The position numbers and the translations under genes are program-made. From positions 6,634,001 to 6,698,000 of the forward strand of contig OZ024761.1 in assembly GCA_964016885.1 (NCBI GenBank): DNA of 64,000 nucleotides. The letters are read 5' to 3'. This stretch comes from Eledone cirrhosa. Its lineage: Eukaryota. Shown piece after piece: positions 1-58,471 of this stretch (positions are counted from its first letter, which is position 1; the number at the start of each line of letters is the position of its first letter). The notes under the pieces are model-generated. The model saw nothing but the letters and a program-made list of their open reading frames with translations, ran no database searches and was not told where the DNA came from.

Positions 1-54
1 TTGACAAAAGCTAATATGGAAGTAAGATTTATCTAATGTTGCTCAGAATTTTCT

Positions 55-1795
55 TCATTATTGCTTATTTTAAAGTCTTGTTTAGCTGCCGATAAATTTG
101 AAATCTATATGTTAGGTTGCTTATACCTACAAACCTTTCTTATGAGACTTACTACGGAATAAATTCTTAGCTGGAGATTTTACTTTGGGATAACGATCCT
201 CCCAAATCCATAACAGCTTGAATCAGATGTAGCAAAAACTTGACTGTGAATATAATTGTAGACGGAAAATGTGTTTGTTTATTCAATCTAAAGAGAAGGA
301 AAAGGAATTATAAGTCATGTGCAAAATTAACGTTTAAAGACATAATAAATGTATCTCTCTTTCGCTCTGGAAAAATAAATTGGCTGTTTTAGGATCAGGA
401 GGAGGGGAGAATTGACTCAGAAGGTTTAAAGGCACACATAGTGGAAAACAACATTTTAAAAATAATTATATCGTTTTCAAATTCACGTAAGTTAAATAAA
501 ATATATTTAAATGAATCTATAGATGGGATGTTGATATCTGCCAGGACTAAAACACATTTTCAAAGGAATAATAAAGAGAAATACCCACATCTCTAGTGGA
601 AATATTTCTGAGATTCGAAACCCTATCGATGTATGTATTTTGTAACTGAAAAATTATCAAAAAATAATGTACGTTTTTCACGCAAGTGAAATTAAAATGA
701 ATCTATATATAGGGTTTTTGATACCTGCCAGAGCTAATGAAATAGTAAAATTTTTTGTTTTCAATTACGTCAAGCATCGTATGTTCTTGTTTATTAAAGA
801 ACTGCTAAAATAGATTTAGTAAGTATTATGCCAAAATTTGTTTCTTAAGCGGTAATGATAGACTCCGTCTGTGCTAGAGTATGTTTACACACACTACATA
901 CATGCATATACATGAATTAATGGTTCATTAGCTTTATTTATCTATTTACACTTCTCGTAATAATTCGAGCGTTATTTTCTTCAGGAGAGACGTAGATAGA
1001 AAACGTTTGTGGCTTTAGTATTGCTTATTTTTATGTTTTGTTTAATTGCCAATAAATGTGAAATCTATTTGTTAGGTTACTTAGATCTACAAACCTTTCT
1101 TATGACACTTACTAATAATTCGAGCATGTCTTTCTTCGGGTGACAGGTAGATAGAAAAACGTTTGTTCAAAATTAACGTTTATAGACAAGAAAAGTATCT
1201 TTCTTTCTCTCTGGAAAAATAAATCGGCTGTTTTTAGACCAGGAGGAGACGAGGATTGACTCAGTCAGGTTTAAATGCATGCCCACATGGCGGTAATTAT
1301 GGCAGCCCTACAACAATAGTTAAGTGTCTATAACAACCACGAATTCATGAGACTGAAATCCTTACTAATGTATTTTTACTTTGGTACTTGAAAAGAAAAT
1401 TTTAAAAATAATTACATCCTTTTCACCTAAGTCAAATACTATGTACTTAAATGAATCTACAGATGAAGATGCAATATCTACTAGGACCTTGGAAATAGTG
1501 AAATATATATTTAAAAAAATTAAAACTACTTTTCAAATAAATAATAAAGATACACAAACACATCTCTCGTGGTGATATTTCTGAGATTGGAAACCTTATC
1601 AATGTATGTATTTTGTCACTGAAAAGTTATAAAGAAAATAATTAATATTATATATGTGTTTTTAGCATAAGTGAAATTAAAATGAGGTTTTCGATACCTG
1701 CCAGAGCTTAGGAAATAATAAAGTAATTTTTTTTTTCAATTATGTCAAACATCGTAGGTGGTTCTTTATTAAAGAAATGCTAAAATAGATTTAAA
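55..1795 (+). repeat. Old internal direct duplication within the unit (~55-820 vs ~1015-1795), each half with a nested ~190-230 bp sub-repeat
   Basis: Paired motifs: tacaaacctttcttatga (128/1088), ctctggaaaaataaat (365/1209), ttgactcag (412/1256), atatttctgagatt (602/1575), gatacctgccagagct (720/1693), tttattaaagaa..tgctaaaatagattta (789/1765). aatgaatcta recurs at 510, 697 and 1450. Confidence 0.9.
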
Positions 1796-1830
1796 TATAT
1801 CAAATTTGCACAGTAGAATTACGGCCGCTT

Positions 1831-2245
1831 GGTGGGCGTGTGGTAAAGTGGTGGTATCGTAGGTAGTGTAGTTAGGTAGTGAAGGTTCGAGCGTAGGGGG
1901 GAACTAAAAAGGTGGCTTCGAGATGACGGTGGCCCCGGTAGCCCAGAAGGTAGAGACCGTTCTTTTAATTAAAAAAATAAAAATACTTTAAATTTTAGAT
2001 AAAGAAGATTGAAAGCCTACCTCCAATCTATACATATATAAAGCATGCATAGATACAGCACTATAACCCACACGGCCACCTACAGACCAACAAATAAGTA
2101 GTGAAAATTAACACATTTAAAGTTATTTTATTGTTAGACTGAAAATAAGTTTATATAGATATATATTTAACAAAAAGTAATCGAAGGCTTTATAGTCTAG
2201 TGGTAAGACATAGAACTAGGGAATGCAGTGGTTGGCTTTCGAATC
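1831..2245. other. Cluster of degenerate tRNA-like (Pol III A/B-box) modules in alternating orientation, once per unit
   Basis: + strand 1831-1925 has A-box-like TGGTAAAGTGG and B-box-like GGTTCGAGC / GCTTCGAGA. 1931-1966 resembles a tRNA 5' arm (GGCCCCGGTAGCCCAGAAGGTAGAG) followed by TTTT. The - strand 2003-2080 reads ggtggccgtgtgggttatagtgctgtatc...ggtaggctttcaatc. The + strand 2186-2245 reads tagtctagtggt...ggttggctttcgaatc. No complete cloverleaf is visible. Confidence 0.5.
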
Positions 2246-2555
2246 AGATTATAATAACAATAATTTTTTTTTTTTTTTATCCTCATACTATAAGGAACTT
2301 ACCTGATTTGAACACGTAGTCATACCATTTAAAGCTTTATTTGTCTCTCCCTCATGGTAAGACAATCAGCATATAAATAAACATGCTTCAATTCAACACG
2401 TTTTCATACCATTTAAAACTTTCTTTAGAGATAAGGCAGACACACACAAATGCACTAGGTAGTAAACTATGAAGACTAAGTATGTCTATTAATATCAACG
2501 CGTCGTTAAATGTAGTGGTCATTTTATTGTTTAATGTACATAAACCCTTTAATAT

Positions 2556-2640
2556 AATTGTTTCTACTTTTGACATAAGACCAGCAATTGTCCCAGTGCA
2601 TTACTGATACTTCATTTTATCGATCCTGCAAGGTTGAACA
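2556..2640 (-). mobile_element. 5'-truncated, decayed tRNA-SINE fragment (same family as 48082 etc.), amplified with the unit
   Basis: aattgtttctacttttgacataagaccagcaattgtcccagtgcattactgatacttcattttatcgatcc matches the tail and core of the full SINE copies at 48082, 55696, 57702 and 59827. Confidence 0.85.
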
Positions 2641-3110
2641 TATAATACCATGTAAAAGATTTAAATGTCAGAAGGAATCATTTTTATTTTCTTGTTCCGT
2701 CAAACCTTGCGTTTATTCTGCACACACACTTGTGGTCGAAACACTTGCTTGAGGTGGGGTTTTTTTATTATAGAAAAACCTAAACTAAGTTCAATGTACT
2801 TAAACTATTGCAAACATTGTTTTTTACAGAAAGAAGGAAACAGGGAGTTCCATGGAGCCGACATTCTCGACAAGAAGGGTTAGACATGAGAAACTTTCGC
2901 TTTGTGGAGATTGACACAACATTGGGTGATGATACGAGGAGAGGAAAGGTTGTGGAGAGTGTCTGAGTGGAAGAGATGAAATGTGAGCAGTAACCTCCGA
3001 AGAGTTGAAATTACTAATTGAGATGAAATCATAGCTATGTTGACAATATATATTACAAACATGTAGTATAAATTAAACTAGTGTTATCCTGTAACACAGA
3101 AGACAAATAA

Positions 3111-3240
3111 AACATTACCTCTTGCATGCACCTCGTACCGGTGTAAACTAAATATGCCACCGGTGTAGCGTTTTTATAGTCTCTCCGCTTCATTATATCA
3201 TCGAGTAACTTGAAACTGAGTTCAAATCACCGGGAGGTAG
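3111..3240 (-). promoter_or_regulatory. Minus-strand promoter/first-exon cassette M1 (TATA, ACCGGT doublet, splice donor)
   Basis: On the - strand: TATAAAAA 3178-3171, ACCGGT at 3159-3164 and 3137-3142, GAG|GTAATG donor at 3118. Homologous to the + strand cassettes at 5386 and 5954. Confidence 0.5.
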
Positions 3241-3260
3241 AAATGTCACTTTAAAATGAA

Positions 3261-3327
3261 GACACAGCTTGCATATTGATTTGACACAGCTTGCATATTG
3301 ATTTCACACAGCTTGTATATTGATTTC
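3261..3327 (+). repeat. 22-bp tandem triplication (acacagcttgcatattgattt), copy number variable among units
   Basis: Three copies in most units, two in unit 3 (~16991), one in unit 7 (~44558). Confidence 0.9.
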
Positions 3328-3840
3328 ACGTTCAAAATAAAAGATACACACAAACACTATCCATCTATTTATCTCTTTCTATATATATATATATGATTAT
3401 ACCCAAAGATATCGATATTGAAACAATTCTAATATGCCAATAAAGTTAATATGTATGCTGTAACAGTCTTTTGGGTCTTACTTTTATTCACAATGTACAG
3501 TTGCTTTAATTCTGGAATAAAACCTAACTGAAACCGTCTTGTCACAATATGGAGTAGGGGCGAATCGCCTGTAACTCTAGTTACACAAAGAATGAAATAA
3601 ATATATATATATATATATATACATATATATTTTTTTGTATAACGGATGTGTATGTAAAATAATATAATTAATATTTGTGCCACAAACGGCGTGTTTACAT
3701 TAAATTCAATGCATGTATAACTACACATACAATGAGCTTTTTCGTTAAAAAACGTTAATATCATATTATTAAGAAAATTATTAATTTCTGGATGTGTTGT
3801 GAGTATATATATTCTAAAAGAGACGGGGTTTAAATGAAAC

Positions 3841-4055
3841 CATTACCTCTTATGAATAAATGTCAAACTGTTTAGAAATACGTGTATGTATACATACTCT
3901 ATTTAAGACGACATAACAAACTACCTTTCGTTAAAGAATGCCAAATAGATTATACTTGAGCAATAGCGGTGTAACACTAATTAAGTTACCGGTGTAGATA
4001 TATTAGTTTACCACTATCAACCGACTGCCCGGTAATTTGAATTCGAGTTCATAGT
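3841..4055 (-). promoter_or_regulatory. Minus-strand cassette M2 (ACCGGT doublet, two donor-like sites; TATA degenerate)
   Basis: AGCGGT 3965-3970 and ACCGGT 3988-3993 with spacer gtaacactaattaagtt. Minus-strand donor-like sites AAG|GTAGTT (3924) and GAG|GTAATG (3846). Confidence 0.4.
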
Positions 4056-4402
4056 GGAGGTTGTAAAAGAAAAATGTTTGGAAAATAGTAGACTCTAAAC
4101 CTGCTAGACACAGCAGTCAAATCGGTTCCTCAGGGTAATAGATGCAAGTAGCTGCGACTTACCCTGTAGGGAGGGGGGGGGGGGACAGTGATTAAAATTT
4201 ACTCAATATATTAATAGTGTGTAAAGAAATATATATATATATGTGTATGGGTGTGTGTTTATATATGCACACACACACACACATATATATTATATATGTA
4301 TGTATGTATACATATATATAAACACACGTATCTATATATACATACTTATCCATAAATATAAACATATTTAAATGTTTACATCAGCATATACATATATAAA
4401 CG

Positions 4403-4440
<38 letters not shown>

Positions 4441-4955
4441 AATGTGAAAACTAAAATCCAAAGAGAGCTCGATAAGGATTTTATGTATATATAAAATATA
4501 TATATATAAAATACCCTAGAACAAATATTTATAGTAAGAACAGATTAAAATGTATGCATATATATGTACATATATAGATATATATTTATTCATACATGCA
4601 TAGAGAACAACAGAAAAAGGTCGGACAATAGGAGTGAAAGACCCCAAAACAAAACAAAATAAGAAGGACTAGCTAGTAATAACAAGTGTGTACATGAAAA
4701 CTGCACACAAGTATTTTTTTTTATCCAAAAATTGGATTTAAGTCAGAGACGAGTTATCATTCGTGGCAAAAATTTCGTTTTTGTTTACATAAAATTTTCT
4801 TTTGTTTTGAAAAGTTAGAGGAGGAAAAAAGAAGAAGTTTTTCAATTTTCTCCACTTCCGATTATTTTCTACTGTATGCTAGAAAGAGCAGTGAAAGCAA
4901 TATATATATTTCATGACAATATATATTGTTTTAAAGCTAAATTATTAACAACAAT

Positions 4956-5126
4956 ACATCGTATTTGCCGGTCTATTGGACACCCCTTCTCATAAGGCGC
5001 TCCTCTATTTCTATTATATTTTACGTTACATTTTGTGGTTTATAGGCATTTCTATGGACCGCTTCCAATGTTCGCGCTTTTTCAATATACTCGGGTCCTC
5101 TAGGACCGTATCACGCGCAAATACCG
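4956..5126. mobile_element. Decayed TcMar (pogo/Tc2-like) MITE remnant
   Basis: Ends gtatttgc (4961) and gcaaatac (5117) are inverted repeats. The left end cgtatttgccggtctattggacac..ataaggcgc resembles the CCGTATTTTCCGGACTATAAGGCGCAC-type TIR of such MITEs. Confidence 0.45.
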
Positions 5127-5385
5127 GGGAATAACTGTATATGAATATATGGACTAATATACATTTAATTACACGCAAATTTATATAAATACCAATATAT
5201 ATACACTAATATATACCAACACATCTGTCTCTCTATGTATATATGAGTAACCGTTTACTACTCATTGGAGACAGAGTGAGAGATTTGGCTGCTACTTTTA
5301 GTAGATTTAGATACTTCGGCAAATGGTTTATTTTTTTTTTTATTCTCGGTACTCTGAACACGATTTGAAATGACTGGAGTGTGTC

Positions 5386-5811
5386 TATAAAAGGGTAAAC
5401 TGAAACTGTTGCACCGGTAACATTTTTAGTTTTACACCGGTATATCCGAGACATAATCTGTCTCGCATTCGTTCGTTAGAGGTAATGTTTCGTATGACGT
5501 CTGAGTTAGTGTATAACTGTAGCTTATTACCATACTTTCACACACATTATATCTATACACATATAGGATTTTATTATTAACTTTGTATTCTATCTAATGA
5601 GAAGAGTTAAAAATAATAAGTGAAGTTAAAACTAACGTATAATTATATAACAATAGTATATAATAGTTTTCTCCACGTTATTGAGATTCCAAAGTTTTAA
5701 AGAAAAAAATCATGATAGCAGAAGAAATATATTTAATATCGTAACAGATAATATTTCAGGCAGGATGGTCGTTTCTCTTGTCTTCTATCTGTAGTAGATT
5801 CGTCATGTTCC
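5386..5811 (+). promoter_or_regulatory. Cassette M3: TATA box, putative exon 1 (to 5481), intron 5482-5759, putative 52-nt exon 2 (5760-5811)
   Basis: TATAAAAG 5386-5393; ACCGGT at 5413 and 5436; GAG|GTAATG at 5481/5482; taatatttcAG acceptor at 5759; C|GTGAAT at 5811/5812. Confidence 0.5.
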
Positions 5812-5953
5812 GTGAATGTCACAGTTTATTATACATTGGAGACAGTGAGAGATTTGGCTACTATTTTTAGAAGATTTAGAAACTTCGGAAAACGGTTTAC
5901 TTTTTTTCTTATTCCCGGCAGTCTGACCAGGATTTGAAATGACTGGAGTGATT

Positions 5954-6423
5954 TATAAAAGGGTAAACTGAATTAGTTGCCCCGGTAATATATTTAGTGT
6001 TACACCGGTATTTCGGAAACATATTCAATTTGGTATTCGTTTGTAAGAGGTAATGGTTATTTTTTTCTTTTGCCGTCTGTGTTAGTGTAGAACTGTTCTA
6101 GATTGACGAGCTTGCTTTTTACAACTCGTTGTCAAAATACATATTATTTACTTTCACACAGACAATTATATTTATACAGATATAGGATTTTATTAAGTTT
6201 GTATTCCTTATAATAAAAGTTAGAAATAATAAGTCAAGTTAAAGAATTAAGTATAATCATATAACAAAAGTATATAATAGTTTCCTAGACTTTATTCAGA
6301 TTCAAGCGTTTTAAAGGAAAAACATGACAGTACAAGAAATATATTTAATATCATAACATATAATATTTCAGGTAGGCAGGTTGTTTCTGTTGTCTTCTAT
6401 CTCCAGTAGATTCGTCATGTTCA
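5954..6423 (+). promoter_or_regulatory. Cassette M4: TATA box, putative exon 1 (to 6049), intron 6050-6371, putative 52-nt exon 2 (6372-6423)
   Basis: TATAAAAG 5954-5961; CCCGGT 5981 and ACCGGT 6004; GAG|GTAATG at 6049/6050; taatatttcAG at 6371; A|GTGAGT consensus donor at 6423/6424. Confidence 0.55.
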
Positions 6424-9400
6424 GTGAGTGTCCTCTCCAGCCATAATTATGTCGTAGACGTAAGCAAATCTTGAGGCAGCCTTTTTGCTGGTACATTTAT
6501 TAGCATGAATTCATGTTTACCCTCCTCGTAATAATTTGTACGTTTTTTTTTTAAATTTAGGTAAGACCTATATAAATATAAACGTTTGTGGGTTTAGTAT
6601 ACCTTTAAGTTTAATTTCATTTAAAAAATACCTCTAACACAATTAGAACTGGAGCTACTAAGTTCTTGGCCACTAGAACATCTATTTGATAGAAGTTATT
6701 TCCTACTTCTATGCACTGTGAATATCCCTTCTACTTGTGTTTGTTAAAGAAACATTCTCTCATTTAGAAACCATGACTTCTTGTTAAATGAATGTTTTGT
6801 CTGGTCCAGTGTCAATAAGTGGCCTTGATTTTTGATTATTAATAAAGTTGAGGGGTCTACTGAATTGACAAAAGCTAATATGGAAGTAAGATTTATCTAA
6901 TGTTGCTCAGAATTTTCTTCATTATTGCTTATTTTAAAGTCTTGTTTAGCTGCCGATAAATTTGAAATCTATATGTTAGGTTGCTTATACCTACAAACCT
7001 TTCTTATGAGACTTACTACGGAATAAATTCTTAGCTGGAGATTTTACTTTGGGATAACGATCCTCCCAAATCCATAACAGCTTGAATCAGATGTAGCAAA
7101 AACTTGACTGTGAATATAATTGTAGACGGAAAATGTGTTTGTTTATTCAATCTAAAGAGAAGGAAAAGGAATTATAAGTCATGTGCAAAATTAACGTTTA
7201 AAGACATAATAAATGTATCTCTCTTTCGCTCTGGAAAAATAAATTGGCTGTTTTAGGATCAGGAGGAGGGGAGAATTGACTCAGAAGGTTTAAAGGCACA
7301 CATAGTGGAAAACAACATTTTAAAAATAATTATATCGTTTTCAAATTCACGTAAGTTAAATAAAATATATTTAAATGAATCTATAGATGGGATGTTGATA
7401 TCTGCCAGGACTAAAACACATTTTCAAAGGAATAATAAAGAGAAATACCCACATCTCTAGTGGAAATATTTCTGAGATTCGAAACCCTATCGATGTATGT
7501 ATTTTGTAACTGAAAAATTATCAAAAAATAATGTACGTTTTTCACGCAAGTGAAATTAAAATGAATCTATATATAGGGTTTTTGATACCTGCCAGAGCTA
7601 ATGAAATAGTAAAATTTTTTGTTTTCAATTACGTCAAGCATCGTATGTTCTTGTTTATTAAAGAACTGCTAAAATAGATTTAGTAAGTATTATGCCAAAA
7701 TTTGTTTCTTAAGCGGTAATGATAGACTCCGTCTGTGCTAGAGTATGTTTACACACACTACATACATGCATATACATGAATTAATGGTTCATTAGCTTTA
7801 TTTATCTATTTACACTTCTCGTAATAATTCGAGCGTTATTTTCTTCAGGAGAGACGTAGATAGAAAACGTTTGTGGCTTTAGTATTGCTTATTTTTATGT
7901 TTTGTTTAATTGCCAATAAATGTGAAATCTATTTGTTAGGTTACTTAGATCTACAAACCTTTCTTATGACACTTACTAATAATTCGAGCATGTCTTTCTT
8001 CGGGTGACAGGTAGATAGAAAAACGTTTGTTCAAAATTAACGTTTATAGACAAGAAAAGTATCTTTCTTTCTCTCTGGAAAAATAAATCGGCTGTTTTTA
8101 GACCAGGAGGAGACGAGGATTGACTCAGTCAGGTTTAAATGCATGCCCACATGGCGGTAATTATGGCAGCCCTACAACAATAGTTAAGTGTCTATAACAA
8201 CCACGAATTCATGAGACTGAAATCCTTACTAATGTATTTTTACTTTGGTACTTGAAAAGAAAATTTTAAAAATAATTACATCCTTTTCACCTAAGTCAAA
8301 TACTATGTACTTAAATGAATCTACAGATGAAGATGCAATATCTACTAGGACCTTGGAAATAGTGAAATATATATTTAAAAAAATTAAAACTACTTTTCAA
8401 ATAAATAATAAAGATACACAAACACATCTCTCGTGGTGATATTTCTGAGATTGGAAACCTTATCAATGTATGTATTTTGTCACTGAAAAGTTATAAAGAA
8501 AATAATTAATATTATATATGTGTTTTTAGCATAAGTGAAATTAAAATGAGGTTTTCGATACCTGCCAGAGCTTAGGAAATAATAAAGTAATTTTTTTTTT
8601 CAATTATGTCAAACATCGTAGGTGGTTCTTTATTAAAGAAATGCTAAAATAGATTTAAATATATCAAATTTGCACAGTAGAATTACGGCCGCTTGGTGGG
8701 CGTGTGGTAAAGTGGTGGTATCGTAGGTAGTGTAGTTAGGTAGTGAAGGTTCGAGCGTAGGGGGGAACTAAAAAGGTGGCTTCGAGATGACGGTGGCCCC
8801 GGTAGCCCAGAAGGTAGAGACCGTTCTTTTAATTAAAAAAATAAAAATACTTTAAATTTTAGATAAAGAAGATTGAAAGCCTACCTCCAATCTATACATA
8901 TATAAAGCATGCATAGATACAGCACTATAACCCACACGGCCACCTACAGACCAACAAATAAGTAGTGAAAATTAACACATTTAAAGTTATTTTATTGTTA
9001 GACTGAAAATAAGTTTATATAGATATATATTTAACAAAAAGTAATCGAAGGCTTTATAGTCTAGTGGTAAGACATAGAACTAGGGAATGCAGTGGTTGGC
9101 TTTCGAATCAGATTATAATAACAATAATTTTTTTTTTTTTTTATCCTCATACTATAAGGAACTTACCTGATTTGAACACGTAGTCATACCATTTAAAGCT
9201 TTATTTGTCTCTCCCTCATGGTAAGACAATCAGCATATAAATAAACATGCTTCAATTCAACACGTTTTCATACCATTTAAAACTTTCTTTAGAGATAAGG
9301 CAGACACACACAAATGCACTAGGTAGTAAACTATGAAGACTAAGTATGTCTATTAATATCAACGCGTCGTTAAATGTAGTGGTCATTTTATTGTTTAATG

Positions 9401-11268
9401 TACATAAACCCCTTAATATAATTGTTTCTACTTTTGACATAAGACCAGCAATTGTCCCAGTGCATTACTGATACTTCATTTTATCGATCCTGCAAGGTTG
9501 AACATATAATACCATGTAAAAGATTTAAATGTCAGAAGGAATCATTTTTATTTTCTTGTTCCGTCAAACCTTGCGTTTATTCTGCACACACACTTGTGGT
9601 CGAAACACTTGCTTGAGGTGGGGTTTTTTTATTATAGAAAAACCTAAACTAAGTTCAATGTACTTAAACTATTGCAAACATTGTTTTTTACAGAAAGAAG
9701 GAAACAGGGAGTTCCATGGAGCCGACATTCTCGACAAGAAGGGTTAGACATGAGAAACTTTCGCTTTGTGGAGATTGACACAACATTGGGTGATGATACG
9801 AGGAGAGGAAAGGTTGTGGAGAGTGTCTGAGTGGAAGAGATGAAATGTGAGCAGTAACCTCCGAAGAGTTGAAATTACTAATTGAGATGAAATCATAGCT
9901 ATGTTGACAATATATATTACAAACATGTAGTATAAATTAAACTAGTGTTATCCTGTAACACAGAAGACAAATAAAACATTACCTCTTGCATGCACCTCGT
10001 ACCGGTGTAAACTAAATATGCCACCGGTGTAGCGTTTTTATAGTCTCTCCGCTTCATTATATCATCGAGTAACTTGAAACTGAGTTCAAATCACCGGGAG
10101 GTAGAAATGTCACTTTAAAATGAAGACACAGCTTGCATATTGATTTGACACAGCTTGCATATTGATTTCACACAGCTTGTATATTGATTTCACGTTCAAA
10201 ATAAAAGATACACACAAACACTATCCATCTATTTATCTCTTTCTATATATATATATATGATTATACCCAAAGATATCGATATTGAAACAATTCTAATATG
10301 CCAATAAAGTTAATATGTATGCTGTAACAGTCTTTTGGGTCTTACTTTTATTCACAATGTACAGTTGCTTTAATTCTGGAATAAAACCTAACTGAAACCG
10401 TCTTGTCACAATATGGAGTAGGGGCGAATCGCCTGTAACTCTAGTTACACAAAGAATGAAATAAATATATATATATATATATATACATATATATTTTTTT
10501 GTATAACGGATGTGTATGTAAAATAATATAATTAATATTTGTGCCACAAACGGCGTGTTTACATTAAATTCAATGCATGTATAACTACACATACAATGAG
10601 CTTTTTCGTTAAAAAACGTTAATATCATATTATTAAGAAAATTATTAATTTCTGGATGTGTTGTGAGTATATATATTCTAAAAGAGACGGGGTTTAAATG
10701 AAACCATTACCTCTTATGAATAAATGTCAAACTGTTTAGAAATACGTGTATGTATACATACTCTATTTAAGACGACATAACAAACTACCTTTCGTTAAAG
10801 AATGCCAAATAGATTATACTTGAGCAATAGCGGTGTAACACTAATTAAGTTACCGGTGTAGATATATTAGTTTACCACTATCAACCGACTGCCCGGTAAT
10901 TTGAATTCGAGTTCATAGTGGAGGTTGTAAAAGAAAAATGTTTGGAAAATAGTAGACTCTAAACCTGCTAGACACAGCAGTCAAATCGGTTCCTCAGGGT
11001 AATAGATGCAAGTAGCTGCGACTTACCCTGTAGGGAGGGGGGGGGGGGGGACAGTGATTAAAATTTACTCAATATATTAATAGTGTGTAAAGAAATATAT
11101 ATATATATGTGTATGGGTGTGTGTTTATATATGCACACACACACACACATATATATTATATATGTATGTATGTATACATATATATAAACACACGTATCTA
11201 TATATACATACTTATCCATAAATATAAACATATTTAAATGTTTACATCAGCATATACATATATAAACG

Positions 11269-11306
<38 letters not shown>

Positions 11307-14300
11307 AATGTGAAAACTAAAATCCAAAGAGAGCTCGATAAGGATTTTATGTATATATAAAATATATATATATAAAATACCCTAGAACAAATATTTATAG
11401 TAAGAACAGATTAAAATGTATGCATATATATGTACATATATAGATATATATTTATTCATACATGCATAGAGAACAACAGAAAAAGGTCGGACAATAGGAG
11501 TGAAAGACCCCAAAACAAAACAAAATAAGAAGGACTAGCTAGTAATAACAAGTGTGTACATGAAAACTGCACACAAGTATTTTTTTTTATCCAAAAATTG
11601 GATTTAAGTCAGAGACGAGTTATCATTCGTGGCAAAAATTTCGTTTTTGTTTACATAAAATTTTCTTTTGTTTTGAAAAGTTAGAGGAGGAAAAAAGAAG
11701 AAGTTTTTCAATTTTCTCCACTTCCGATTATTTTCTACTGTATGCTAGAAAGAGCAGTGAAAGCAATATATATATTTCATGACAATATATATTGTTTTAA
11801 AGCTAAATTATTAACAACAATACATCGTATTTGCCGGTCTATTGGACACCCCTTCTCATAAGGCGCTCCTCTATTTCTATTATATTTTACGTTACATTTT
11901 GTGGTTTATAGGCATTTCTATGGACCGCTTCCAATGTTCGCGCTTTTTCAATATACTCGGGTCCTCTAGGACCGTATCACGCGCAAATACCGGGGAATAA
12001 CTGTATATGAATATATGGACTAATATACATTTAATTACACGCAAATTTATATAAATACCAATATATATACACTAATATATACCAACACATCTGTCTCTCT
12101 ATGTATATATGAGTAACCGTTTACTACTCATTGGAGACAGAGTGAGAGATTTGGCTGCTACTTTTAGTAGATTTAGATACTTCGGCAAATGGTTTATTTT
12201 TTTTTTTATTCTCGGTACTCTGAACACGATTTGAAATGACTGGAGTGTGTCTATAAAAGGGTAAACTGAAACTGTTGCACCGGTAACATTTTTAGTTTTA
12301 CACCGGTATATCCGAGACATAATCTGTCTCGCATTCGTTCGTTAGAGGTAATGTTTCGTATGACGTCTGAGTTAGTGTATAACTGTAGCTTATTACCATA
12401 CTTTCACACACATTATATCTATACACATATAGGATTTTATTATTAACTTTGTATTCTATCTAATGAGAAGAGTTAAAAATAATAAGTGAAGTTAAAACTA
12501 ACGTATAATTATATAACAATAGTATATAATAGTTTTCTCCACGTTATTGAGATTCCAAAGTTTTAAAGAAAAAAATCATGATAGCAGAAGAAATATATTT
12601 AATATCGTAACAGATAATATTTCAGGCAGGATGGTCGTTTCTCTTGTCTTCTATCTGTAGTAGATTCGTCATGTTCCGTGAATGTCACAGTTTATTATAC
12701 ATTGGAGACAGTGAGAGATTTGGCTACTATTTTTAGAAGATTTAGAAACTTCGGAAAACGGTTTACTTTTTTTCTTATTCCCGGCAGTCTGACCAGGATT
12801 TGAAATGACTGGAGTGATTTATAAAAGGGTAAACTGAATTAGTTGCCCCGGTAATATATTTAGTGTTACACCGGTATTTCGGAAACATATTCAATTTGGT
12901 ATTCGTTTGTAAGAGGTAATGGTTATTTTTTTCTTTTGCCGTCTGTGTTAGTGTAGAACTGTTCTAGATTGACGAGCTTGCTTTTTACAACTCGTTGTCA
13001 AAATACATATTATTTACTTTCACACAGACAATTATATTTATACAGATATAGGATTTTATTAAGTTTGTATTCCTTATAATAAAAGTTAGAAATAATAAGT
13101 CAAGTTAAAGAATTAAGTATAATCATATAACAAAAGTATATAATAGTTTCCTAGACTTTATTCAGATTCAAGCGTTTTAAAGGAAAAACATGACAGTACA
13201 AGAAATATATTTAATATCATAACATATAATATTTCAGGTAGGCAGGTTGTTTCTGTTGTCTTCTATCTCCAGTAGATTCGTCATGTTCAGTGAGTGTCCT
13301 CTCCAGCCATAATTATGTCGTAGACGTAAGCAAATCTTGAGGCAGCCTTTTTGCTGGTACATTTATTAGCATGAATTCATGTTTACCCTCCTCGTAATAA
13401 TTTGTACGTTTTTTTTTTAAATTTAGGTAAGACCTATATAAATATAAACGTTTGTGGGTTTAGTATACCTTTAAGTTTAATTTCATTTAAAAAATACCTC
13501 TAACACAATTAGAACTGGAGCTACTAAGTTCTTGGCCACTAGAACATCTATTTGATAGAAGTTATTTCCTACTTCTATGCACTGTGAATATCCCTTCTAC
13601 TTGTGTTTGTTAAAGAAACATTCTCTCATTTAGAAACCATGACTTCTTGTTAAATGAATGTTTTGTCTGGTCCAGTGTCAATAAGTGGCCTTGATTTTTG
13701 ATTATTAATAAAGTTGAGGGGTCTACTGAATTGACAAAAGCTAATATGGAAGTAAGATTTATCTAATGTTGCTCAGAATTTTCTTCATTATTGCTTATTT
13801 TAAAGTCTTGTTTAGCTGCCGATAAATTTGAAATCTATATGTTAGGTTGCTTATACCTACAAACCTTTCTTATGAGACTTACTACGGAATAAATTCTTAG
13901 CTGGAGATTTTACTTTGGGATAACGATCCTCCCAAATCCATAACAGCTTGAATCAGATGTAGCAAAAACTTGACTGTGAATATAATTGTAGACGGAAAAT
14001 GTGTTTGTTTATTCAATCTAAAGAGAAGGAAAAGGAATTATAAGTCATGTGCAAAATTAACGTTTAAAGACATAATAAATGTATCTCTCTTTCGCTCTGG
14101 AAAAATAAATTGGCTGTTTTAGGATCAGGAGGAGGGGAGAATTGACTCAGAAGGTTTAAAGGCACACATAGTGGAAAACAACATTTTAAAAATAATTATA
14201 TCGTTTTCAAATTCACGTAAGTTAAATAAAATATATTTAAATGAATCTATAGATGGGATGTTGATATCTGCCAGGACTAAAACACATTTTCAAAGGAATA

Positions 14301-17300
14301 ATAAAGAGAAATACCCACATCTCTAGTGGAAATATTTCTGAGATTCGAAACCCTATCGATGTATGTATTTTGTAACTGAAAAATTATCAAAAAATAATGT
14401 ACGTTTTTCACGCAAGTGAAATTAAAATGAATCTATATATAGGGTTTTTGATACCTGCCAGAGCTAATGAAATAGTAAAATTTTTTGTTTTCAATTACGT
14501 CAAGCATCGTATGTTCTTGTTTATTAAAGAACTGCTAAAATAGATTTAGTAAGTATTATGCCAAAATTTGTTTCTTAAGCAGTAATGATAGACTCCGTCT
14601 GTGCTAGAGTATGTTTACACACACTACATACATGCATATACATGAATTAATGGTTCATTAGCTTTATTTATCTATTTACACTTCTCGTAATAATTCGAGC
14701 GTTATTTTCTTCAGGAGAGACGTAGATAGAAAACGTTTGTGGCTTTAGTATTGCTTATTTTTATGTTTTGTTTAATTGCCAATAAATGTGAAATCTATTT
14801 GTTAGGTTACTTAGATCTACAAACCTTTCTTATGACACTTACTAATAATTCGAGCATGTCTTTCTTCGGGTGACAGGTAGATAGAAAAACGTTTGTTCAA
14901 AATTAACGTTTATAGACAAGAAAAGTATCTTTCTTTCTCTCTGGAAAAATAAATCGGCTGTTTTTAGACCAGGAGGAGACGAGGATTGACTCAGTCAGGT
15001 TTAAATGCATGCCCACATGGCGGTAATTATGGCAGCCCTACAACAATAGTTAAGTGTCTATAACAACCACGAATTCATGAGACTGAAATCCTTACTAATG
15101 TATTTTTACTTTGGTACTTGAAAAGAAAATTTTAAAAATAATTACATCCTTTTCACCTAAGTCAAATACTATGTACTTAAATGAATCTACAGATGAAGAT
15201 GCAATATCTACTAGGACCTTGGAAATAGTGAAATATATATTTAAAAAAATTAAAACTACTTTTCAAATAAATAATAAAGATACACAAACACATCTCTCGT
15301 GGTGATATTTCTGAGATTGGAAACCTTATCAATGTATGTATTTTGTCACTGAAAAGTTATAAAGAAAATAATTAATATTATATATGTGTTTTTAGCATAA
15401 GTGAAATTAAAATGAGGTTTTCGATACCTGCCAGAGCTTAGGAAATAATAAAGTAATTTTTTTTTTCAATTATGTCAAACATCGTAGGTGGTTCTTTATT
15501 AAAGAAATGCTAAAATAGATTTAAATATATCAAATTTGCACAGTAGAATTACGGCCGCTTGGTGGGCGTGTGGTAAAGTGGTGGTATCGTAGGTAGTGTA
15601 GTTAGGTAGTGAAGGTTCGAGCGTAGGGGGGAACTAAAAAGGTGGCTTCGAGATGACGGTGGCCCCGGTAGCCCAGAAGGTAGAGACCGTTCTTTTAATT
15701 AAAAAAATAAAAATACTTTAAATTTTAGATAAAGAAGATTGAAAGCCTACCTCCAATCTATACATATATAAAGCATGCATAGATACAGCACTATAACCCA
15801 CACGGCCACCTACAGACCAACAAATAAGTAGTGAAAATTAACACATTTAAAGTTATTTTATTGTTAGACTGAAAATAAGTTTATATAGATATATATTTAA
15901 CAAAAAGTAATCGAAGGCTTTATAGTCTAGTGGTAAGACATAGAACTAGGGAATGCAGTGGTTGGCTTTCGAATCAGATTATAATAACAATAATTTTTTT
16001 TTTTTTTTATCCTCATACTATAAGGAACTTACCTGATTTGAACACGTAGTCATACCATTTAAAGCTTTATTTGTCTCTCCCTCATGGTAAGACAATCAGC
16101 ATATAAATAAACATGCTTCAATTCAACACGTTTTCATACCATTTAAAACTTTCTTTAGAGATAAGGCAGACACACACAAATGAACTAGGTAGTAAACTAT
16201 GAAGACTACGTATGTCTATTAATATCAACGCGTCGTTAAATGTAGTGGTCATTTTATTGTTTAATGTACATAAACCCCTTAATATAATTGTTTCTACTTT
16301 TGACATAAGACCAGCAATTGTCCCAGTGCATTACTGATACTTCATTTTATCGATCCTGCAAGGTTGAACATATAATACCATGTAAAAGATTTAAATGTCA
16401 GAAGGAATCATTTTTATTTTCTTGTTCCGTCAAACCTTGCGTTTATTCTGCACACACACTTGTGGTCGAAACACTTGCTTGAGGTGGGGTTTTTTTATTA
16501 TAGAAAAACCTAAACTAAGTTCAATGTACTTAAACTATTGCAAACATTGTTTTTTACAGAAAGAAGTAAACAGGGAGTTCCATGGAGCCGACATTCTCGA
16601 CAAGAAGGGTTAGACATGAGAAACTTTCGCTTTGTGGAGATTGACACAACATTGGGTGATGATACGAGGAGAGGAAAGGTTGTGGAGAGTGTCTGAGTGG
16701 AAGAGATGAAATGTGAGCAGTAACCTCCGAAGAGTTGAAATTACTAATTGAGATGAAATCATAGCTATGTTGACAATATATATTACAAACATGTAGTATA
16801 AATTAAACTAGTGTTATCCTGTAACACAGAAGACAAATAAAACATTACCTCTTGCATGCACCTCGTACCGGTGTAAACTAAATATGCCACCGGTGTAGCG
16901 TTTTTATAGTCTCTCCGCTTCATTATATCATCGAGTAACTTGAAACTGAGTTCAAATCACCGGGAGGTAGAAATGTCACTTTAAAATGAAGACACAGCTT
17001 GCATATTGATTTGACACAGCTTGCATATTGATTTCACGTTCAAAATAAAAGATACACACACACACTATCCATCTATTTATCTCTTTCTATATATATATAT
17101 ATGATTATACCCAAAGATATCGATATTGAAACAATTCTAATATGCCAATAAAGTTAATATGTATGCTGTAACAGTCTTTTGGGTCTTACTTTTATTCACA
17201 ATGTACAGTTGCTTTAATTCTGGAATAAAACCTAACTGAAACCGTCTTGTCACAATATGGAGTAGGGGCGAATCGCCTGTAACTCTAGTTACACAAAGAA

Positions 17301-17308
17301 TGAAATAA

Positions 17309-17339
<31 letters not shown>

Positions 17340-18107
17340 TATTTTTTTGTATAACGGATGTGTATGTAAAATAATATAATTAATATTTGTGCCACAAACG
17401 GCGTGTTTACATTAAATTCAATGCATGTATAACTACACATACAATGAGCTTTTTCGTTAAAAAACGTTAATATCATATTATTAAGAAAATTATTAATTTC
17501 TGGATGTGTTGTGAGTATATATATTCTAAAAGAGACGGGGTTTAAATGAAACCATTACCTCTTATGAATAAATGTCAAACTGTTTAGAAATACGTGTATG
17601 TATACATACTCTATTTAAGACGACATAACAAACTACCTTTCGTTAAAGAATGCCAAATAGATTATACTTGAGCAATAGCGGTGTAACACTAATTAAGTTA
17701 CCGGTGTAGATATATTAGTTTACCACTATCAACCGACTGCCCGGTAATTTGAATTCGAGTTCATAGTGGAGGTTGTAAAAGAAAAATGTTTGGAAAATAG
17801 TAGACTCTAAACCTGCTAGACACAGCAGTCAAATCGGTTCCTCAGGGTAATAGATGCAAGTAGCTGCGACTTACCCTGTAGGGAGGGGGGGGGGGGGACA
17901 GTGATTAAAATTTACTCAATATATTAATAGTGTGTAAAGAAATATATATATATATGTGTATGGGTGTGTGTTTATATATGCACACACACACACACATATA
18001 TATTATATATGTATGTATGTATACATATATATAAACACACGTATCTATATATACATACTTATCCATAAATATAAACATATTTAAATGTTTACATCAGCAT
18101 ATATAAA

Positions 18108-18153
<46 letters not shown>

Positions 18154-21100
18154 AATGTGAAAACTAAAATCCAAAGAGAGCTCGATAAGGATTTTATGTA
18201 TATATAAAATATATATATATAAAATACCCTAGAACAAATATTTATAGTAAGAACAGATTAAAATGTATGCATATATATGTACATATATAGATATATATTT
18301 ATTCATACATGCATAGAGAACAACAGAAAAAGGTCGGACAATAGGAGTGAAAGACCCCAAAACAAAACAAAATAAGAAGGACTAGCTAGTAATAACAAGT
18401 GTGTACATGAAAACTGCACACAAGTATTTTTTTTTATCCAAAAATTGGATTTAAGTCAGAGACGAGTTATCATTCGTGGCAAAAATTTCGTTTTTGTTTA
18501 CATAAAATTTTCTTTTGTTTTGAAAAGTTAGAGGAGGAAAAAAGAAGAAGTTTTTCAATTTTCTCCACTTCCGATTATTTTCTACTGTATGCTAGAAAGA
18601 GCAGTGAAAGCAATATATATATTTCATGACAATATATATTGTTTTAAAGCTAAATTATTAACAACAATACATCGTATTTGCCGGTCTATTGGACACCCCT
18701 TCTCATAAGGCGCTCCTCTATTTCTATTATATTTTACGTTACATTTTGTGGTTTATAGGCATTTCTATGGACCACTTCCAATGTTCGCGCTTTTTCAATA
18801 TACTCGGGTCCTCTAGGACCGTATCACGCGCAAATACCGGGGAATAACTGTATATGAATATATGGACTAATATACATTTAATTACACGCAAATTTATATA
18901 AATACCAATATATATACACTAATATATACCAACACATCTGTCTCTCTATGTATATATGAGTAACCGTTTACTACTCATTGGAGACAGAGTGAGAGATTTG
19001 GCTGCTACTTTTAGTAGATTTAGATACTTCGGCAAATGGTTTATTTTTTTTTTTATTCTCGGTACTCTGAACACGATTTGAAATGACTGGAGTGTGTCTA
19101 TAAAAGGGTAAACTGAAACTGTTGCACCGGTAACATTTTTAGTTTTACACCGGTATATCCGAGACATAATCTGTCTCGCATTCGTTCGTTAGAGGTAATG
19201 TTTCTTATGTCGTCTGAGTTAGTGTATAACTGTAGCTTATTACCATACTTTCACACAAATTATATCTATACACATATAGGATTTTATTATTAACTTTGTA
19301 TTCTATCTAATGAGAAGAGTTAGAAATAATAAGTGAAGTTAAAACTAACGTATAATTATATAACAATAGTATATAATAGTTTTCTCCACGTTATTGAGAT
19401 TCCAAAGTTTTAAAGAAAAAATCAAGATAGCAGAAGAAATATATTTAATATCGTAACAGATAATATTTCAGGCAGGGTGGTCGTTTCTCTTGTCTTCTAT
19501 CTGTAGTAGATTCGTCATGTTCCGTGAATGTCACAGTTTATTATACATTGGAGACAGTGAGAGATTTGGCTACTATTTTTAGAAGATTTAGAAACTTCGG
19601 AAAACGGTTTACTTTTTTTCTTATTCCCGGCAGTCTGACCAGGATTTGAAATGACTGGAGTGATTTATAAAAGGGTAAACTGAATTAGTTGCCCCGGTAA
19701 TATATTTAGTGTTACACCGGTATTTCGGAAACATATTCAATTTGGTATTCGTTTGTAAGAGGTAATGGTTATTTTTTTCTTTTGCCGTCTGTGTTAGTGT
19801 AGAACTGTTCTAGATTGACGAGCTTGCTTTTTACAACTCGTTGTCAAAATACATATTATTTACTTTCACACAGACAATTATATTTATACAGATATAGGAT
19901 TTTATTAAGTTTGTATTCCTTATAATAAAAGTTAGAAATAATAAGTCAAGTTAAAGAATTAAGTATAATCATATAACAAAAGTATATAATAGTTTCCTAG
20001 ACTTTATTCAGATTCAAGCGTTTTAAAGGAAAAACATGACAGTACAAGAAATATATTTAATATCATAACATATAATATTTCAGGTAGGCAGGTTGTTTCT
20101 GTTGTCTTCTATCTCCAGTAGATTCGTCATGTTCAGTGAGTGTCCTCTCCAGCCATAATTATGTCGTAGACGTAAGCAAATCTTGAGGCAGCCTTTTTGC
20201 TGGTACATTTATTAGCATGAATTCATGTTTACCCTCCTCGTAATAATTTGTACGTTTTTTTTTAAAATTTAGGTAAGACCTATATAAATATAAACGTTTG
20301 TGGGTTTAGTATACCTTTAAGTTTAATTTCATTTAAAAAATACTTCTAACACAATTAGAACTGGAGCTACTAAGTTCTTGGCCACTAGAACATCTATTTG
20401 ATAGAAGTTATTTCCTACTTCTATGCACTGTGAATATCCCTTCTACTTGTGTTTGTTAAAGAAACATTCTCTCATTTAGAAACCATGACTTCTTGTTAAA
20501 TGAATGTTTTGTCTGGTCCAGTGTCAATAAGTGGCCTTGATTTTTGATTATTAATAAAGTTGAGGGGTCTACTGAATTGACAAAAGCTAATATGGAAGTA
20601 AGATTTATCTAATGTTGCTCAGAATTTTCTTCATTATTGCTTATTTTAAAGTCTTGTTTAGCTGCCGATAAATTTGAAATCTATATGTTAGGTTGCTTAT
20701 ACCTACAAACCTTTCTTATGAGACTTACTACGGAATAAATTCTTAGCTGGAGATTTTACTTTGGGATAACGATCCTCCCAAATCCATAACAGCTTGAATC
20801 AGATGTAGCAAAAACTTGACTGTGAATATAATTGTAGACGGAAAATGTGTTTGTTTATTCAATCTAAAGAGAAGGAAAAGGAATTATAAGTCATGTGCAA
20901 AATTAACGTTTAAAGACATAATAAATGTATCTCTCTTTCGCTCTGGAAAAATAAATTGGCTGTTTTAGGATCAGGAGGAGGGGAGAATTGACTCAGAAGG
21001 TTTAAAGGCACACATAGTGGAAAACAACATTTTAAAAATAATTATATCGTTTTCAAATTCACGTAAGTTAAATAAAATATATTTAAATGAATCTATAGAT

Positions 21101-24100: not shown

Positions 24101-24176
24101 TAACTGAAACCGTCTTGTCACAATATGGAGTAGGGGCGAATCGCCTGTAACTCTAGTTACACAAAGAATGAAATAA

Positions 24177-24207
<31 letters not shown>

Positions 24208-24974
24208 TATTTTTTTGTATAACGGATGTGTATGTAAAATAATATAATTAATATTTGTGCCACAAACGGCGTGTTTACATTAAATTCAATGCATGTATAA
24301 CTACACATACAATGAGCTTTTTCGTTAAAAAACGTTAATATCATATTATTAAGAAAATTATTAATTTCTGGATGTGTTGTGAGTATATATATTCTAAAAG
24401 AGACGGGGTTTAAATGAAACCATTACCTCTTATGAATAAATGTCAAACTGTTTAGAAATACGTGTATGTATACATACTCTATTTAAGACGACATAACAAA
24501 CTACCTTTCGTTAAAGAATGCCAAATAGATTATACTTGAGCAATAGCGGTGTAACACTAATTAAGTTACCGGTGTAGATATATTAGTTTACCACTATCAA
24601 CCGACTGCCCGGTAATTTGAATTCGAGTTCATAGTGGAGGTTGTAAAAGAAAAATGTTTGGAAAATAGTAGACTCTAAACCTGCTAGACACAGCAGTCAA
24701 ATCGGTTCCTCAGGGTAATAGATGCAAGTAGCTGCGACTTACCCTGTAGGGAGGGGGGGGGGGAACAGTGAATAAAATTTACTCAATATATTAATAGTGT
24801 GTAAAGAAATATATATATATATGTGTATGGGTGTGTGTTTATATATGCACACACACACACACATATATATTATATATGTATGTATGTATACATATATATA
24901 AACACACGTATCTATATATACATACTTATCCATAAATATAAACATATTTAAATGTTTACATCAGCATATATAAA

Positions 24975-25024
<50 letters not shown>

Positions 25025-31000: not shown

Positions 31001-31875
31001 CTAACTGAAACCGTCTTGTCACAATATGGAGTAGGGGCGAATCGCCTGTAACTCTAGTTACACAAAGAATGAAATAAATATATATATATATATATATATA
31101 CATATATATTTTTTTGTATAACGGATGTGTATGTAAAATAATATAATTAATATTTGTGCCACAAACGGCGTGTTTACATTAAATTCAATGCATGTATAAC
31201 TACACATACAATGAGCTTTTTCGTTAAAAAACGTTAATATCATATTATTAAGAAAATTATTAATTTCTGGATGTGTTGTGAGTATATATATTCTAAAAGA
31301 GACGGGGTTTAAATGAAACCATTACCTCTTATGAATAAATGTCAAACTGTTTAGAAATACGTGTATGTATACATACTCTATTTAAGACGACATAACAAAC
31401 TACCTTTCGTTAAAGAATGCCAAATAGATTATACTTGAGCAATAGCGGTGTAACACTAATTAAGTTACCGGTGTAGATATATTAGTTTACCACTATCAAC
31501 CGACTGCCCGGTAATTTGAATTCGAGTTCATAGTGGAGGTTGTAAAAGAAAAATGTTTGGAAAATAGTAGACTCTAAACCTGCTAGACACAGCAGTCAAA
31601 TCGGTTCCTCAGGGTAATAGATGCAAGTAGCTGCGACTTACCCTGTAGGGAGGGGGGGGGGGGGAACAGTGATTAAAATTTACTCAATATATTAATAGTG
31701 TGTAAAGAAATATATATATATATGTGTATGGGTGTGTGTTTATATATGCACACACACACACACATATATATTATATATGTATGTATGTATACATATATAT
31801 AAACACACGTATCTATATATACATACTTATCCATAAATATAAACATATTTAAATGTTTACATCAGCATATATAAA

Positions 31876-31925
<50 letters not shown>

Positions 31926-37900: not shown

Positions 37901-37973
37901 GGCTTGGAGGAGGGGCGAATCGCCTGTAACTCTAGTTACACAAAGAATGAAATAAATATATATATATATATAA

Positions 37974-38014
<41 letters not shown>

Positions 38015-38793: not shown

Positions 38794-38826
<33 letters not shown>

Positions 38827-44800: not shown

Positions 44801-45210
44801 GCCTGTAACTCTAGTTACACAAAGATACAAATAAATATATATATACACATATATTTAATTTTGTATAATGGATGTGTATGTAAAATAATATATTTGTGCC
44901 ACAAACGGCGTGTTTACATTAAATTCAATGCATGTCTAACTACTCATACAATAAGCTTTTTCGTAAAAAAAAAACGTTACCATCATATTATAGAGAAAAC
45001 TATTAATTTATAGATGTGTTGTGAGTATATATATTCTAAAAGAGACGGGGTCTAAATAAAACCATTACCTCTTATGAATAAATGTCAAACTGTTTAGGAA
45101 TACGTGTATGTATACATACTCTATTTAAGACGACATAACAAACTACCTTTCGTTAAGGAATGCCAAAAAGATTATGCTTGAACAATAGCGGTCTAAAAAC
45201 AACCAAAATA

Positions 45211-56571: not shown

Positions 56572-56965
<394 letters not shown>

Positions 56966-58439: not shown

Positions 58440-58471
58440 AATATAATCAAAATATACCAGTGTTTCTTATA

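What the first reader, a model, noticed from the sequence alone, without database searches (positions are those of the whole stretch)
5386..6423. The 6.9-kb unit is an array of TATA-promoter / exon-1 / 52-nt exon-2 cassettes with no recognisable gene body
Seen: TATAAAAG (5386, 5954) is followed by an ACCGGT doublet, a GAG|GTAATG donor ~95 bp after the TATA, an AT-rich intron, tttcAG, and a GC-richer segment closed by GTGAGT/GTGAAT. In four diverged paralogs (5760-5811, 6372-6423, and minus-strand 46777-46726 and 46251-46200) that segment is exactly 52 nt with AG/GT preserved, while the introns carry indels. All four are open in frame 0 (AGWSFLLSSICSRFVMF, VGRLFLLSSISSRFVMF, VGWSFLMSSICSRFVMF, VGWSFLWSSVSSRFFMF) and end ATG-TTC-N|GT. 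Inference: a lineage-specific spliced transcription unit (lncRNA, small-RNA host or micropeptide gene) amplified at three nested scales, or a battery of alternative promoters/first exons for a gene outside the window. Caveat: tttCAG|GTAGG could be a donor rather than an acceptor.
Basis: partly seen in the sequence, partly recalled or inferred. Interest (0 to 1): 0.75.

Follow-up and report, generated by a model that had tools for sequence, protein, structure and literature searches.

The report
Promoter-carrying macrosatellite in octopus-like genome
A 6-7 kb DNA block repeated well over a hundred times, mostly on one chromosome, carries several small modules whose binding-site-like motifs and splice signals changed far less than the DNA around them, so it likely is, or was, an array of promoters for spliced non-coding RNA rather than a protein gene, although no transcript has been seen.

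Summary
The sequence features are real, with small corrections, but the interpretation needs revision. The 6.9-kb unit is one subfamily of a macrosatellite of roughly 130-150 units in at least 11 arrays on contig C22, with relics on C24, C18 and C1622. Across 32-47 diverged modules, the two TRCACCGGTR boxes and the AG|GTA donor changed about three times less than their flanks (0 of 70 neutral simulations matched this; ratio 0.14 on internal branches). The exon-2 acceptor and, in the plus-strand type, the TATA box are also constrained. Exon bodies are not: their divergence equals the intron's, exon 2 is 45, 52 or 55 nt, shows no codon pattern, and has lost its donor in the largest arrays. No gene body was found in any copy examined. 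Best reading: selected promoter/first-exon modules for spliced non-coding transcription, amplified as a macrosatellite. Main rival: a dead relic. Expression is untested. Micropeptide, snRNA-type, tRNA-type and single-distant-gene readings are not supported.

The parts
1..45196 (.). Tandem array of the 6.85-6.90 kb unit (about 6.5 units in the window; begins about 9 kb left of it)
   Evidence: self-BLAST; units 99.6-99.9% identical; left end in L033/L034
5355..5377 (+). Upstream element about 58 bp before box 1, recognisable in module types A, B and C; not like the U2 or U6 upstream elements of this genome
5386..5393 (+). TATA box of module A1; constrained within A-type modules only
   Evidence: 2 changes over 8 columns in 14 A lineages; not constrained across A/B/C
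5413..5481 (+). Predicted exon 1 of A1 with box 1 (ACCGGT 5413-5418) and box 2 (5436-5441); donor GT at 5482
   Evidence: constraint; start site inferred from TATA distance
5482..5759 (+). Predicted intron of A1 (278 nt); indel-rich, takes SINE insertions in paralogs
5760..5811 (+). Predicted exon 2 of A1 (52 nt), donor GTGAAT at 5812
5954..6049 (+). Module A2: TATA 5954-5961, box 1 (CCCGGT 5981-5986), box 2 (6004-6009), donor GT at 6050
   Evidence: A1 and A2 are 76.5% identical
6372..6423 (+). Predicted exon 2 of A2 (52 nt) after a 322-nt intron, donor GTGAGT at 6424
9416..9502 (.). Fragment of a high-copy dispersed repeat (SINE-like), a passenger in this subfamily
   Evidence: matches unrelated loci; very high contig depth; SINE label recalled
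9981..10042 (-).
   Evidence: nhmmer with an A-only profile E 2e-14
10669..10744 (-). Partial extra copy of the exon-1 end and donor (GAG|GTAATG at 10713)
   Evidence: (E 2e-6)
10787..10915 (-).
   Evidence: nhmmer with an A-only profile E 7e-22
11460..11775 (.). Family-specific arm; single here, an inverted pair between modules B and A in other subfamilies (centre of an old palindrome)
11775..12006 (.). Truncated MITE-like insert (equivalent to 4909-5140) that also occurs in unrelated loci
   Evidence: matches in L093 and L104; transposon class recalled from the end motif
45200..47074 (-). Inverted, 70-85% diverged partial unit with modules A1' (no TATA; exon 2 46777-46726) and A2' (TATA 46613; exon 2 46251-46200)

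Best explanation
The 6.9-kb unit is one subfamily of a macrosatellite whose short motifs changed far less than their flanks, so each unit likely carries several RNA polymerase II promoter/first-exon modules that would make spliced non-coding RNA. Shown: repeat structure, spread, motif conservation, absence of a coding body in the copies examined. Inferred: a sequence-specific factor binds the two direct TRCACCGGTR boxes 23 bp apart at the predicted start; U1 recognises the donor about 70 nt downstream; A-type transcripts splice to a 52/55-nt second exon. A modules point right and B/C modules point left from an old palindrome centre, so neighbouring units would be transcribed towards each other. 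Selection appears to act on binding and splice signals, not on RNA sequence, which suggests that factor binding or the act of transcription and splicing is what matters. New copies arise by DNA-level duplication (introns retained); arrays are homogenised and stray copies decay.
For: 32 diverged modules, tree length 4.8: parsimony changes per site are 1.0 (box 1), 1.5 (box 2) and 1.6 (AG|GTA) against 4.1 background. The three best 6-mer windows fall on these motifs, and 0 of 70 uniform-rate simulations with indels and realignment reached any of the three values. With 47 modules the ratio is 0.35 overall and 0.14 on internal branches (3 vs 246 steps). It holds within types: A 0.42, B 0.39, C 0.51 (p 1e-4, 0.003, 0.06). 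Acceptor TTTCAG: 1 change against 12 expected in 25 lineages. The boxes are G+C-rich, yet background G/C columns change faster than A/T columns (6.0 vs 4.5), and CpG columns in 8 of 8 other modules run at 1.1-3.0 times the mean. Indels are rarer in exon 1 than in the intron core (0.7 vs 4.1 per 100 aligned sites, pairwise and not independent). SINE insertions lie in the intron in 4 lineages and in neither exon. Motif losses cluster in particular copies (L044 second module, 27-Mb second module). Motif-only constraint matches human lincRNAs (PMC4245815, abstract).
Against: Exon bodies diverge like the intron and like the rest of the unit. TATA is absent in type B and out of register in type C. 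The second donor is deleted in the largest arrays: the donor-intact pattern has 65 hits and misses the arrays at 15.1, 16.4, 17.0, 18.9 and 30.5 Mb, against 148 hits for the acceptor pattern. No constrained third exon or polyA site was found: the candidate acceptor at 6560 loses its AG in 6 of 17 lineages. In 15 modules found independently through the arm, the ratio is only 0.62 (p 0.13). The simulation assumes uniform rates, but 5 of 10 partly overlapping control alignments from the same unit have stronger rate heterogeneity (alpha 0.9-1.9) than the module (4.0), on shallower trees. The first profile was seeded with copies found by the box pattern, so some ascertainment remains; an A-seeded rebuild gave the same pattern.
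Confidence: 0.5

Rival explanations
1. Dead relic: the 5' end of an old gene family was under selection long ago, lost its body, and is now amplified as neutral satellite by unequal crossing-over.
For: Flat divergence over the unit; donor 2 deleted in most units; many truncated, LINE-interrupted copies; constraint weaker on terminal branches (0.42) and in arm-found relics (0.62); no terminal exon.
Against: Constraint persists inside the younger A clade (0.38). The highly amplified lineages mostly keep both boxes and donor 1. No copy with a gene body turned up among the loci screened.
Confidence: 0.27
2. Non-autonomous transposon family: the arms are terminal inverted repeats, and the boxes are transposase-binding or internal promoter sites needed for spreading (convergent promoters as in Mutator elements; recalled).
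For: Dispersal to four or more contigs in both orientations; inverted arm pairs 81-96% identical; many array starts lie at or near the arm; strong internal-branch constraint fits copying from intact sources.
Against: In solitary relics the arm pair lies in the middle with modules on both sides (L115-L118, L079), array ends are ragged, no target-site duplication was evident by eye, and the arm pattern has only 89 hits, none next to a transposase frame in the loci fetched.
Confidence: 0.1
3. Alternative first exons that splice to a distant protein-coding body, with ATG-TTC-N at the end of exon 2 as the start.
For: ATG 7 nt before the donor in 17 of 20 donor-bearing lineages; 52 and 55 nt keep the same phase. 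An earlier AI note describes homogenised first exons before zinc-finger genes in this genome (unchecked).
Against: Arrays face both ways at many loci. No Pfam family above its cut-off in 91 reading frames from the unit, 47 kb downstream on plus, 18 kb on minus and one frame of L045. No conserved acceptor or frame after exon 2. Short or unknown exons, or a body further away, would be missed.
Confidence: 0.08
4. Host gene for small RNAs, or a micropeptide gene.
For: Short exons and a short intron are typical of host genes (recalled). Frame 0 of exon 2 is open in most lineages.
Against: No Rfam match at E<=1 in 5200-11050. No long hairpin shared by the window and L031 units among the top folds. 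The box1-box2 stem shows 1 two-sided change and more breaking than G-U changes in its six core pairs. Codon positions change equally, 26/27/29, and there is no ATG upstream of the frame.
Confidence: 0.05

Closest known systems
Human macrosatellites with internal promoters, DXZ4 and D4Z4 (PMC5687341; passages read)
   Same: Head-to-tail units of several kb, promoters inside each unit, transcription in both directions (shown for DXZ4 and D4Z4, predicted here), non-coding output.
   Different: A+T-rich; four promoter-like modules per unit with predicted splice sites; at least 11 diverged arrays along one chromosome; no ORF like DUX4; the binding factor is unknown.
RNU2 6.1-kb macrosatellite (PMC5687341; passages read)
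   Same: Unit size, near-identical units, embedded microsatellite and transposon relics around a small functional part.
   Different: No snRNA or other Rfam family; the upstream element differs from this genome's U2 and U6 upstream sequences.
Multi-exon lincRNAs with splice-related constraint (PMC4245815; abstract and section list seen)
   Same: Constraint at splice signals, exon cores near neutral.
   Different: Here the locus is amplified more than a hundredfold and no transcript is known.
Grainyhead/CP2 binding sites (PMC5829564 and PMC13105062; passages read)
   Same: The ACCGGT core equals positions 2-7 of AACCGGTT; paired sites occur.
   Different: The conserved motif is TRCACCGGTR, with two mismatches to the octamer; the paper reports a sharp loss of binding from one mismatch. 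The invariant upstream T.C is not part of that motif.
Coleoid tandem gene arrays such as protocadherins and C2H2 zinc fingers (PMC9068888; passages read)
   Same: Multi-megabase spread on one chromosome, sub-arrays homogenised locally.
   Different: No coding sequence in any copy examined.

Membership tests
Macrosatellite | Head-to-tail units of several kb | tested here: met
   6847-6901 bp units, 99.6-99.9% identical; 6.2-7.1 kb in other arrays
Macrosatellite with internal promoter (DXZ4/D4Z4 type) | Transcription from within each unit | not testable with these tools
   No run on record as RNA was offered
Spliced lncRNA gene | Splice signals under constraint | tested here: met
   Donor 1 and acceptor; donor 2 deleted in the largest arrays
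Spliced lncRNA gene | No coding potential | tested here: met
Spliced lncRNA gene | Spliced transcript over 200 nt with a 3' end | tested here: inconclusive
   No constrained third exon; AATAAA at 6842 is kept in 8 of 10 lineages on a shallow tree; no RNA data
Micropeptide gene | Start codon and codon-position constraint | tested here: not met
   No ATG before frame 0; 26/27/29 changes by position
snRNA-type or spliced-leader RNA gene | Upstream element shared with the genome's snRNA genes; Sm site after the donor | tested here: not met
   2 U6 and 4 U2 upstream regions compared by eye; no conserved Sm-like run in the alignment
tRNA or tRNA-derived array | Cloverleaf or A/B boxes at the module | tested here: not met
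   0 tRNAs in the window and in 14 of 14 loci; relaxed ARAGORN no better than shuffles and no hit on the A, B or C module of the window unit
Grainyhead/CP2 target | AACCGGTT octamer or CNRG-N5/6-CNRG | tested here: not met
   Only the 6-bp core matches; flanks are C and A/G; boxes are 23 bp apart
Grainyhead/CP2 target | Binding in vivo or in vitro | not testable with these tools
   Needs ChIP or EMSA
TIR DNA transposon (Mutator/foldback type) | Insertions bounded by inverted repeats with target-site duplication; autonomous partner | tested here: inconclusive
   Arm pairs are internal in solitary relics and ends are ragged; no repeat library was available

The most novel reading that the evidence does not exclude
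An active 'promoter satellite': about 140 units with several hundred selected promoter/first-exon modules and no product of their own, acting as a chromosome-scale sink or hub for one transcription factor (possibly Grainyhead/CP2-like) and producing convergent spliced RNAs that organise chromatin or feed a small-RNA pathway in a specific tissue.
Probability: 0.15. Interest if true: 0.75.

Novelty: new variant of a known kind. Interest (0 to 1): 0.42.

Why it matters
If active, this would be an invertebrate counterpart of promoter-bearing macrosatellites such as DXZ4, in a group known for tandem coding arrays but not for non-coding ones. It shows that selection on promoter and splice motifs can be read from paralogs within one genome. 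It also offers a candidate core-promoter motif pair (TRCACCGGTR twice, 23 bp apart) that one reporter assay could test. If dead, it is an ordinary lineage-specific satellite.

Tried and rejected
Expression: no RNA holder listed; this is no evidence either way. Four runs of unrecorded kind were laid. X1-X3 cover the unit evenly. X4 (another sample, 88 million letters) is patchy; its near-identical contigs run in genomic form across the TATA and donor (5343-5641) and across exon 2 (6341-7101). None of its 6 listed joints is GT..AG or a predicted junction, 15 of 30 joints were not shown. Contigs drop rare forms and the run's kind is unknown, so nothing is concluded. One search used a wrong spacer length, gave 0 hits, and was redone. 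One hit outside the family with the same TATA-box-box geometry (C17:9434832) has no detectable homology, and the reversed control pattern gave 7 hits, so it was set aside. snRNA promoter, tRNA-like reading, Rfam (microsatellite-type noise and one weak tRNA hit at 56651-56708 outside the array, 59 of 209 rows not shown; none), pre-miRNA hairpin and an RNA stem between the boxes were tested and not supported. Recursive-splicing exon (AG|GT followed by about 50 nt): considered from a search listing only and rejected because the GT is not conserved and the intron is short. Third exon at 6561: AG not conserved and no shared frame. Look-ups of earlier findings by place and by sequence gave nothing. 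No cross-species comparison was possible: G000 has no relatives in the tools.

Full report
Setting. The window is G000:C22:6634001-6698000 of a 3.0-Gb genome. It looks octopus-like from its repeat content (my recall) and from earlier AI notes on this genome (unchecked). Positions 1-45196 are a tandem array with a period of 6847-6901 bp and 99.6-99.9% identity among the 5 full units compared. A diverged, inverted partial unit follows at 47074-45200.

Observation. In one unit the TATA-, donor- and acceptor-like words are no commoner than in shuffles; only ACCGGT is enriched. Their presence alone is therefore weak evidence.

Extent of the family. An exon-2 acceptor pattern has 148 exact hits, the box pair 180, TATA plus boxes 113, the intact exon-2 end 65 and the arm 89. 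The reversed controls gave 0 in all but the TATA pattern, which gave 7. Lists stop at 100 places. From them I tally roughly 130-150 units in arrays near 6.6, 7.1, 8.0, 15.1, 16.4, 17.0, 17.7, 18.2, 18.9, 27.0 and 30.5 Mb of C22, in both orientations, plus short or single copies on C22, C24, C18 and C1622. Units are 6.2-7.1 kb and 83-88% identical over aligned columns between the window and three other lineages. The contig depths of three evenly covering runs are compatible with a real multi-copy array but are no measure of copy number.

Anatomy. A profile built from plus-strand (A) modules alone finds two more modules on the minus strand, B at about 10915-10787 (E 7e-22) and C at about 10107-9981 (E 2e-14); the broader promoter profile adds a partial donor copy at 10744-10669. 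All types share an upstream element, two TRCACCGGTR boxes (23 bp apart in the consensus) and an AG|GTA donor. Only A has the TATA 27 bp before box 1 and the second exon. Between B and A lies a family-specific arm, single in this subfamily and an inverted pair in others. In solitary relics the pair is central, so the block reads as an old palindrome with promoters pointing outwards, later amplified in tandem. This history is inferred.

No gene body. The longest stop-to-stop frame in the unit is 137 aa and runs through a (TA)n tract. Frames of 100-110 aa or more in the fetched flanks were, by eye, retroelement, transposon or simple-repeat pieces, apart from one serine-rich frame antisense to the L045 copy. 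91 frames (those of 52 aa or more that passed a complexity filter in the unit and next to the array, plus that L045 frame) gave no Pfam family above its cut-off. Rfam and ARAGORN found nothing in the unit. Exon 1 has no ATG, exon 2 changes equally at the three codon positions (26/27/29), and paralogs carry stops, frameshifts or no donor.

Selection tests. Over whole regions in 7 of 12 A representatives there is no exon-intron difference: exon 1 0.19, exon 2 0.125, intron core 0.15. At motif level there is. In 32 representatives (104 distinct sequences clustered at 90%, from 179 hits) box 1, box 2 and the donor show 1.0, 1.5 and 1.6 changes per site against 4.1, while the TATA position shows 5.0 across types. 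None of 70 neutral simulations with indels and realignment matched the three best windows. With 15 more modules found through the arm, the ratio is 0.14 on internal branches, 0.42 on terminal branches and 0.62, not significant, for the added copies alone. The acceptor has 1 change against 12 expected and the last 35 intron bases are also slow (23 changes; the script's expectation of 85 is inflated by non-homologous left edges, and the alignment mean gives about 72).

Limits of these tests. The null assumes uniform rates, and 5 of 10 partly overlapping control alignments from the same unit show stronger heterogeneity on shallower trees. Their slow windows are mostly A+T-rich, whereas the boxes are G+C-rich and contain CpG, which elsewhere changes at 1.1-3.0 times the mean. 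Octopus repeats are mostly unmethylated, satellites somewhat less so (PMC9476566, passages). The first profile was seeded through the box pattern; an A-seeded rebuild with 31 sequences gave the same pattern. Binomial p values treat columns as independent.

Mechanism. Slow boxes and splice signals with neutral exon bodies, and decay in stray copies, fit promoter/first-exon modules of non-coding transcription evolving by birth and death. Human lincRNAs show similar splice-centred constraint (PMC4245815, abstract). The boxes behave as a direct-repeat DNA site, not an RNA stem. Their core matches the middle of the Grainyhead site AACCGGTT but not its ends (PMC5829564 and PMC13105062, passages), so the factor is unidentified. 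Transcription, start sites and splicing are all predicted; the read evidence available does not bear on them (see Tried and rejected).

Comparison and novelty. It works most like promoter-bearing macrosatellites such as DXZ4 and D4Z4 (PMC5687341, passages). It is a macrosatellite by definition; membership of the transcribed kind is untested. Three searches on octopus repeats and non-coding RNA (listings only) and passages of PMC9068888 and PMC13282606 showed no description of this family. The library is partial and I opened no supplements; repeat libraries in the supplements of PMC13282606 could hold it as an unknown repeat. Searches were seen as listings only.

Verdict. Real structure, broader than reported, with credible motif-level selection but no product and no expression evidence. 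Active non-coding promoter array 0.5, dead relic 0.27, transposon-related 0.1, distant coding gene 0.08, small-RNA host or micropeptide 0.05. Interest 0.42.

Noticed in passing
L091 8832-8887 (G000:C17:9434832-9434887, minus): Unrelated sequence with the same geometry as module A: TATAAA, 27 bp to ACCGGT, 17-bp spacer, ACCGGT. No profile match; within chance by the control count.
   Followed up: partly
L106, L107, L119, L120 (C18 29.02 Mb; C1777): A different 4.5-kb tandem repeat carries a 156-bp piece of the arm (93% identical) next to three short repeats with A-box-like motifs; ARAGORN finds no tRNA.
   Followed up: partly
window 11580-11765 (equals 4715-4900): The arm is the most conserved part of the unit between arrays (about 85-94%), with a long invariant stretch; palindrome repair may explain it.
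   Followed up: partly
window 6490-8660: Nested old duplications (7308-7682 with 8254-8657; 7182-7298 with 8028-8143; 6917-7018 with 7877-7978) with some slow windows such as ATACCTGCCAGAGCT; on the minus strand this reads CAG|GTATCG, a possible splice site.
   Followed up: partly
window 8690-8815 and 9055-9112: G+C-richer stretches with A-box-like motifs on the plus strand, possibly decayed tRNA-derived repeats.
   Followed up: partly
L045 5274-5618 (+): A 115-aa serine-rich frame that looks like a real coding exon, antisense to the family copy there; no Pfam match.
   Followed up: partly
window 51698-53414, 53685-53997, 58470-59801: Minisatellites with 24-, 39- and 46-bp units right of the array.
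   Followed up: no
window 56651-56708 (-): Weak Rfam tRNA match (30.6 bits, gathering 29) not called by ARAGORN; probably a tRNA-derived repeat.
   Followed up: no
L063-L078 (C19 31.78-31.84 Mb; C3 307.35-307.45 Mb): U6 genes form a 1.8-kb tandem array and U2 genes a 2.2-kb tandem array in this genome.
   Followed up: no
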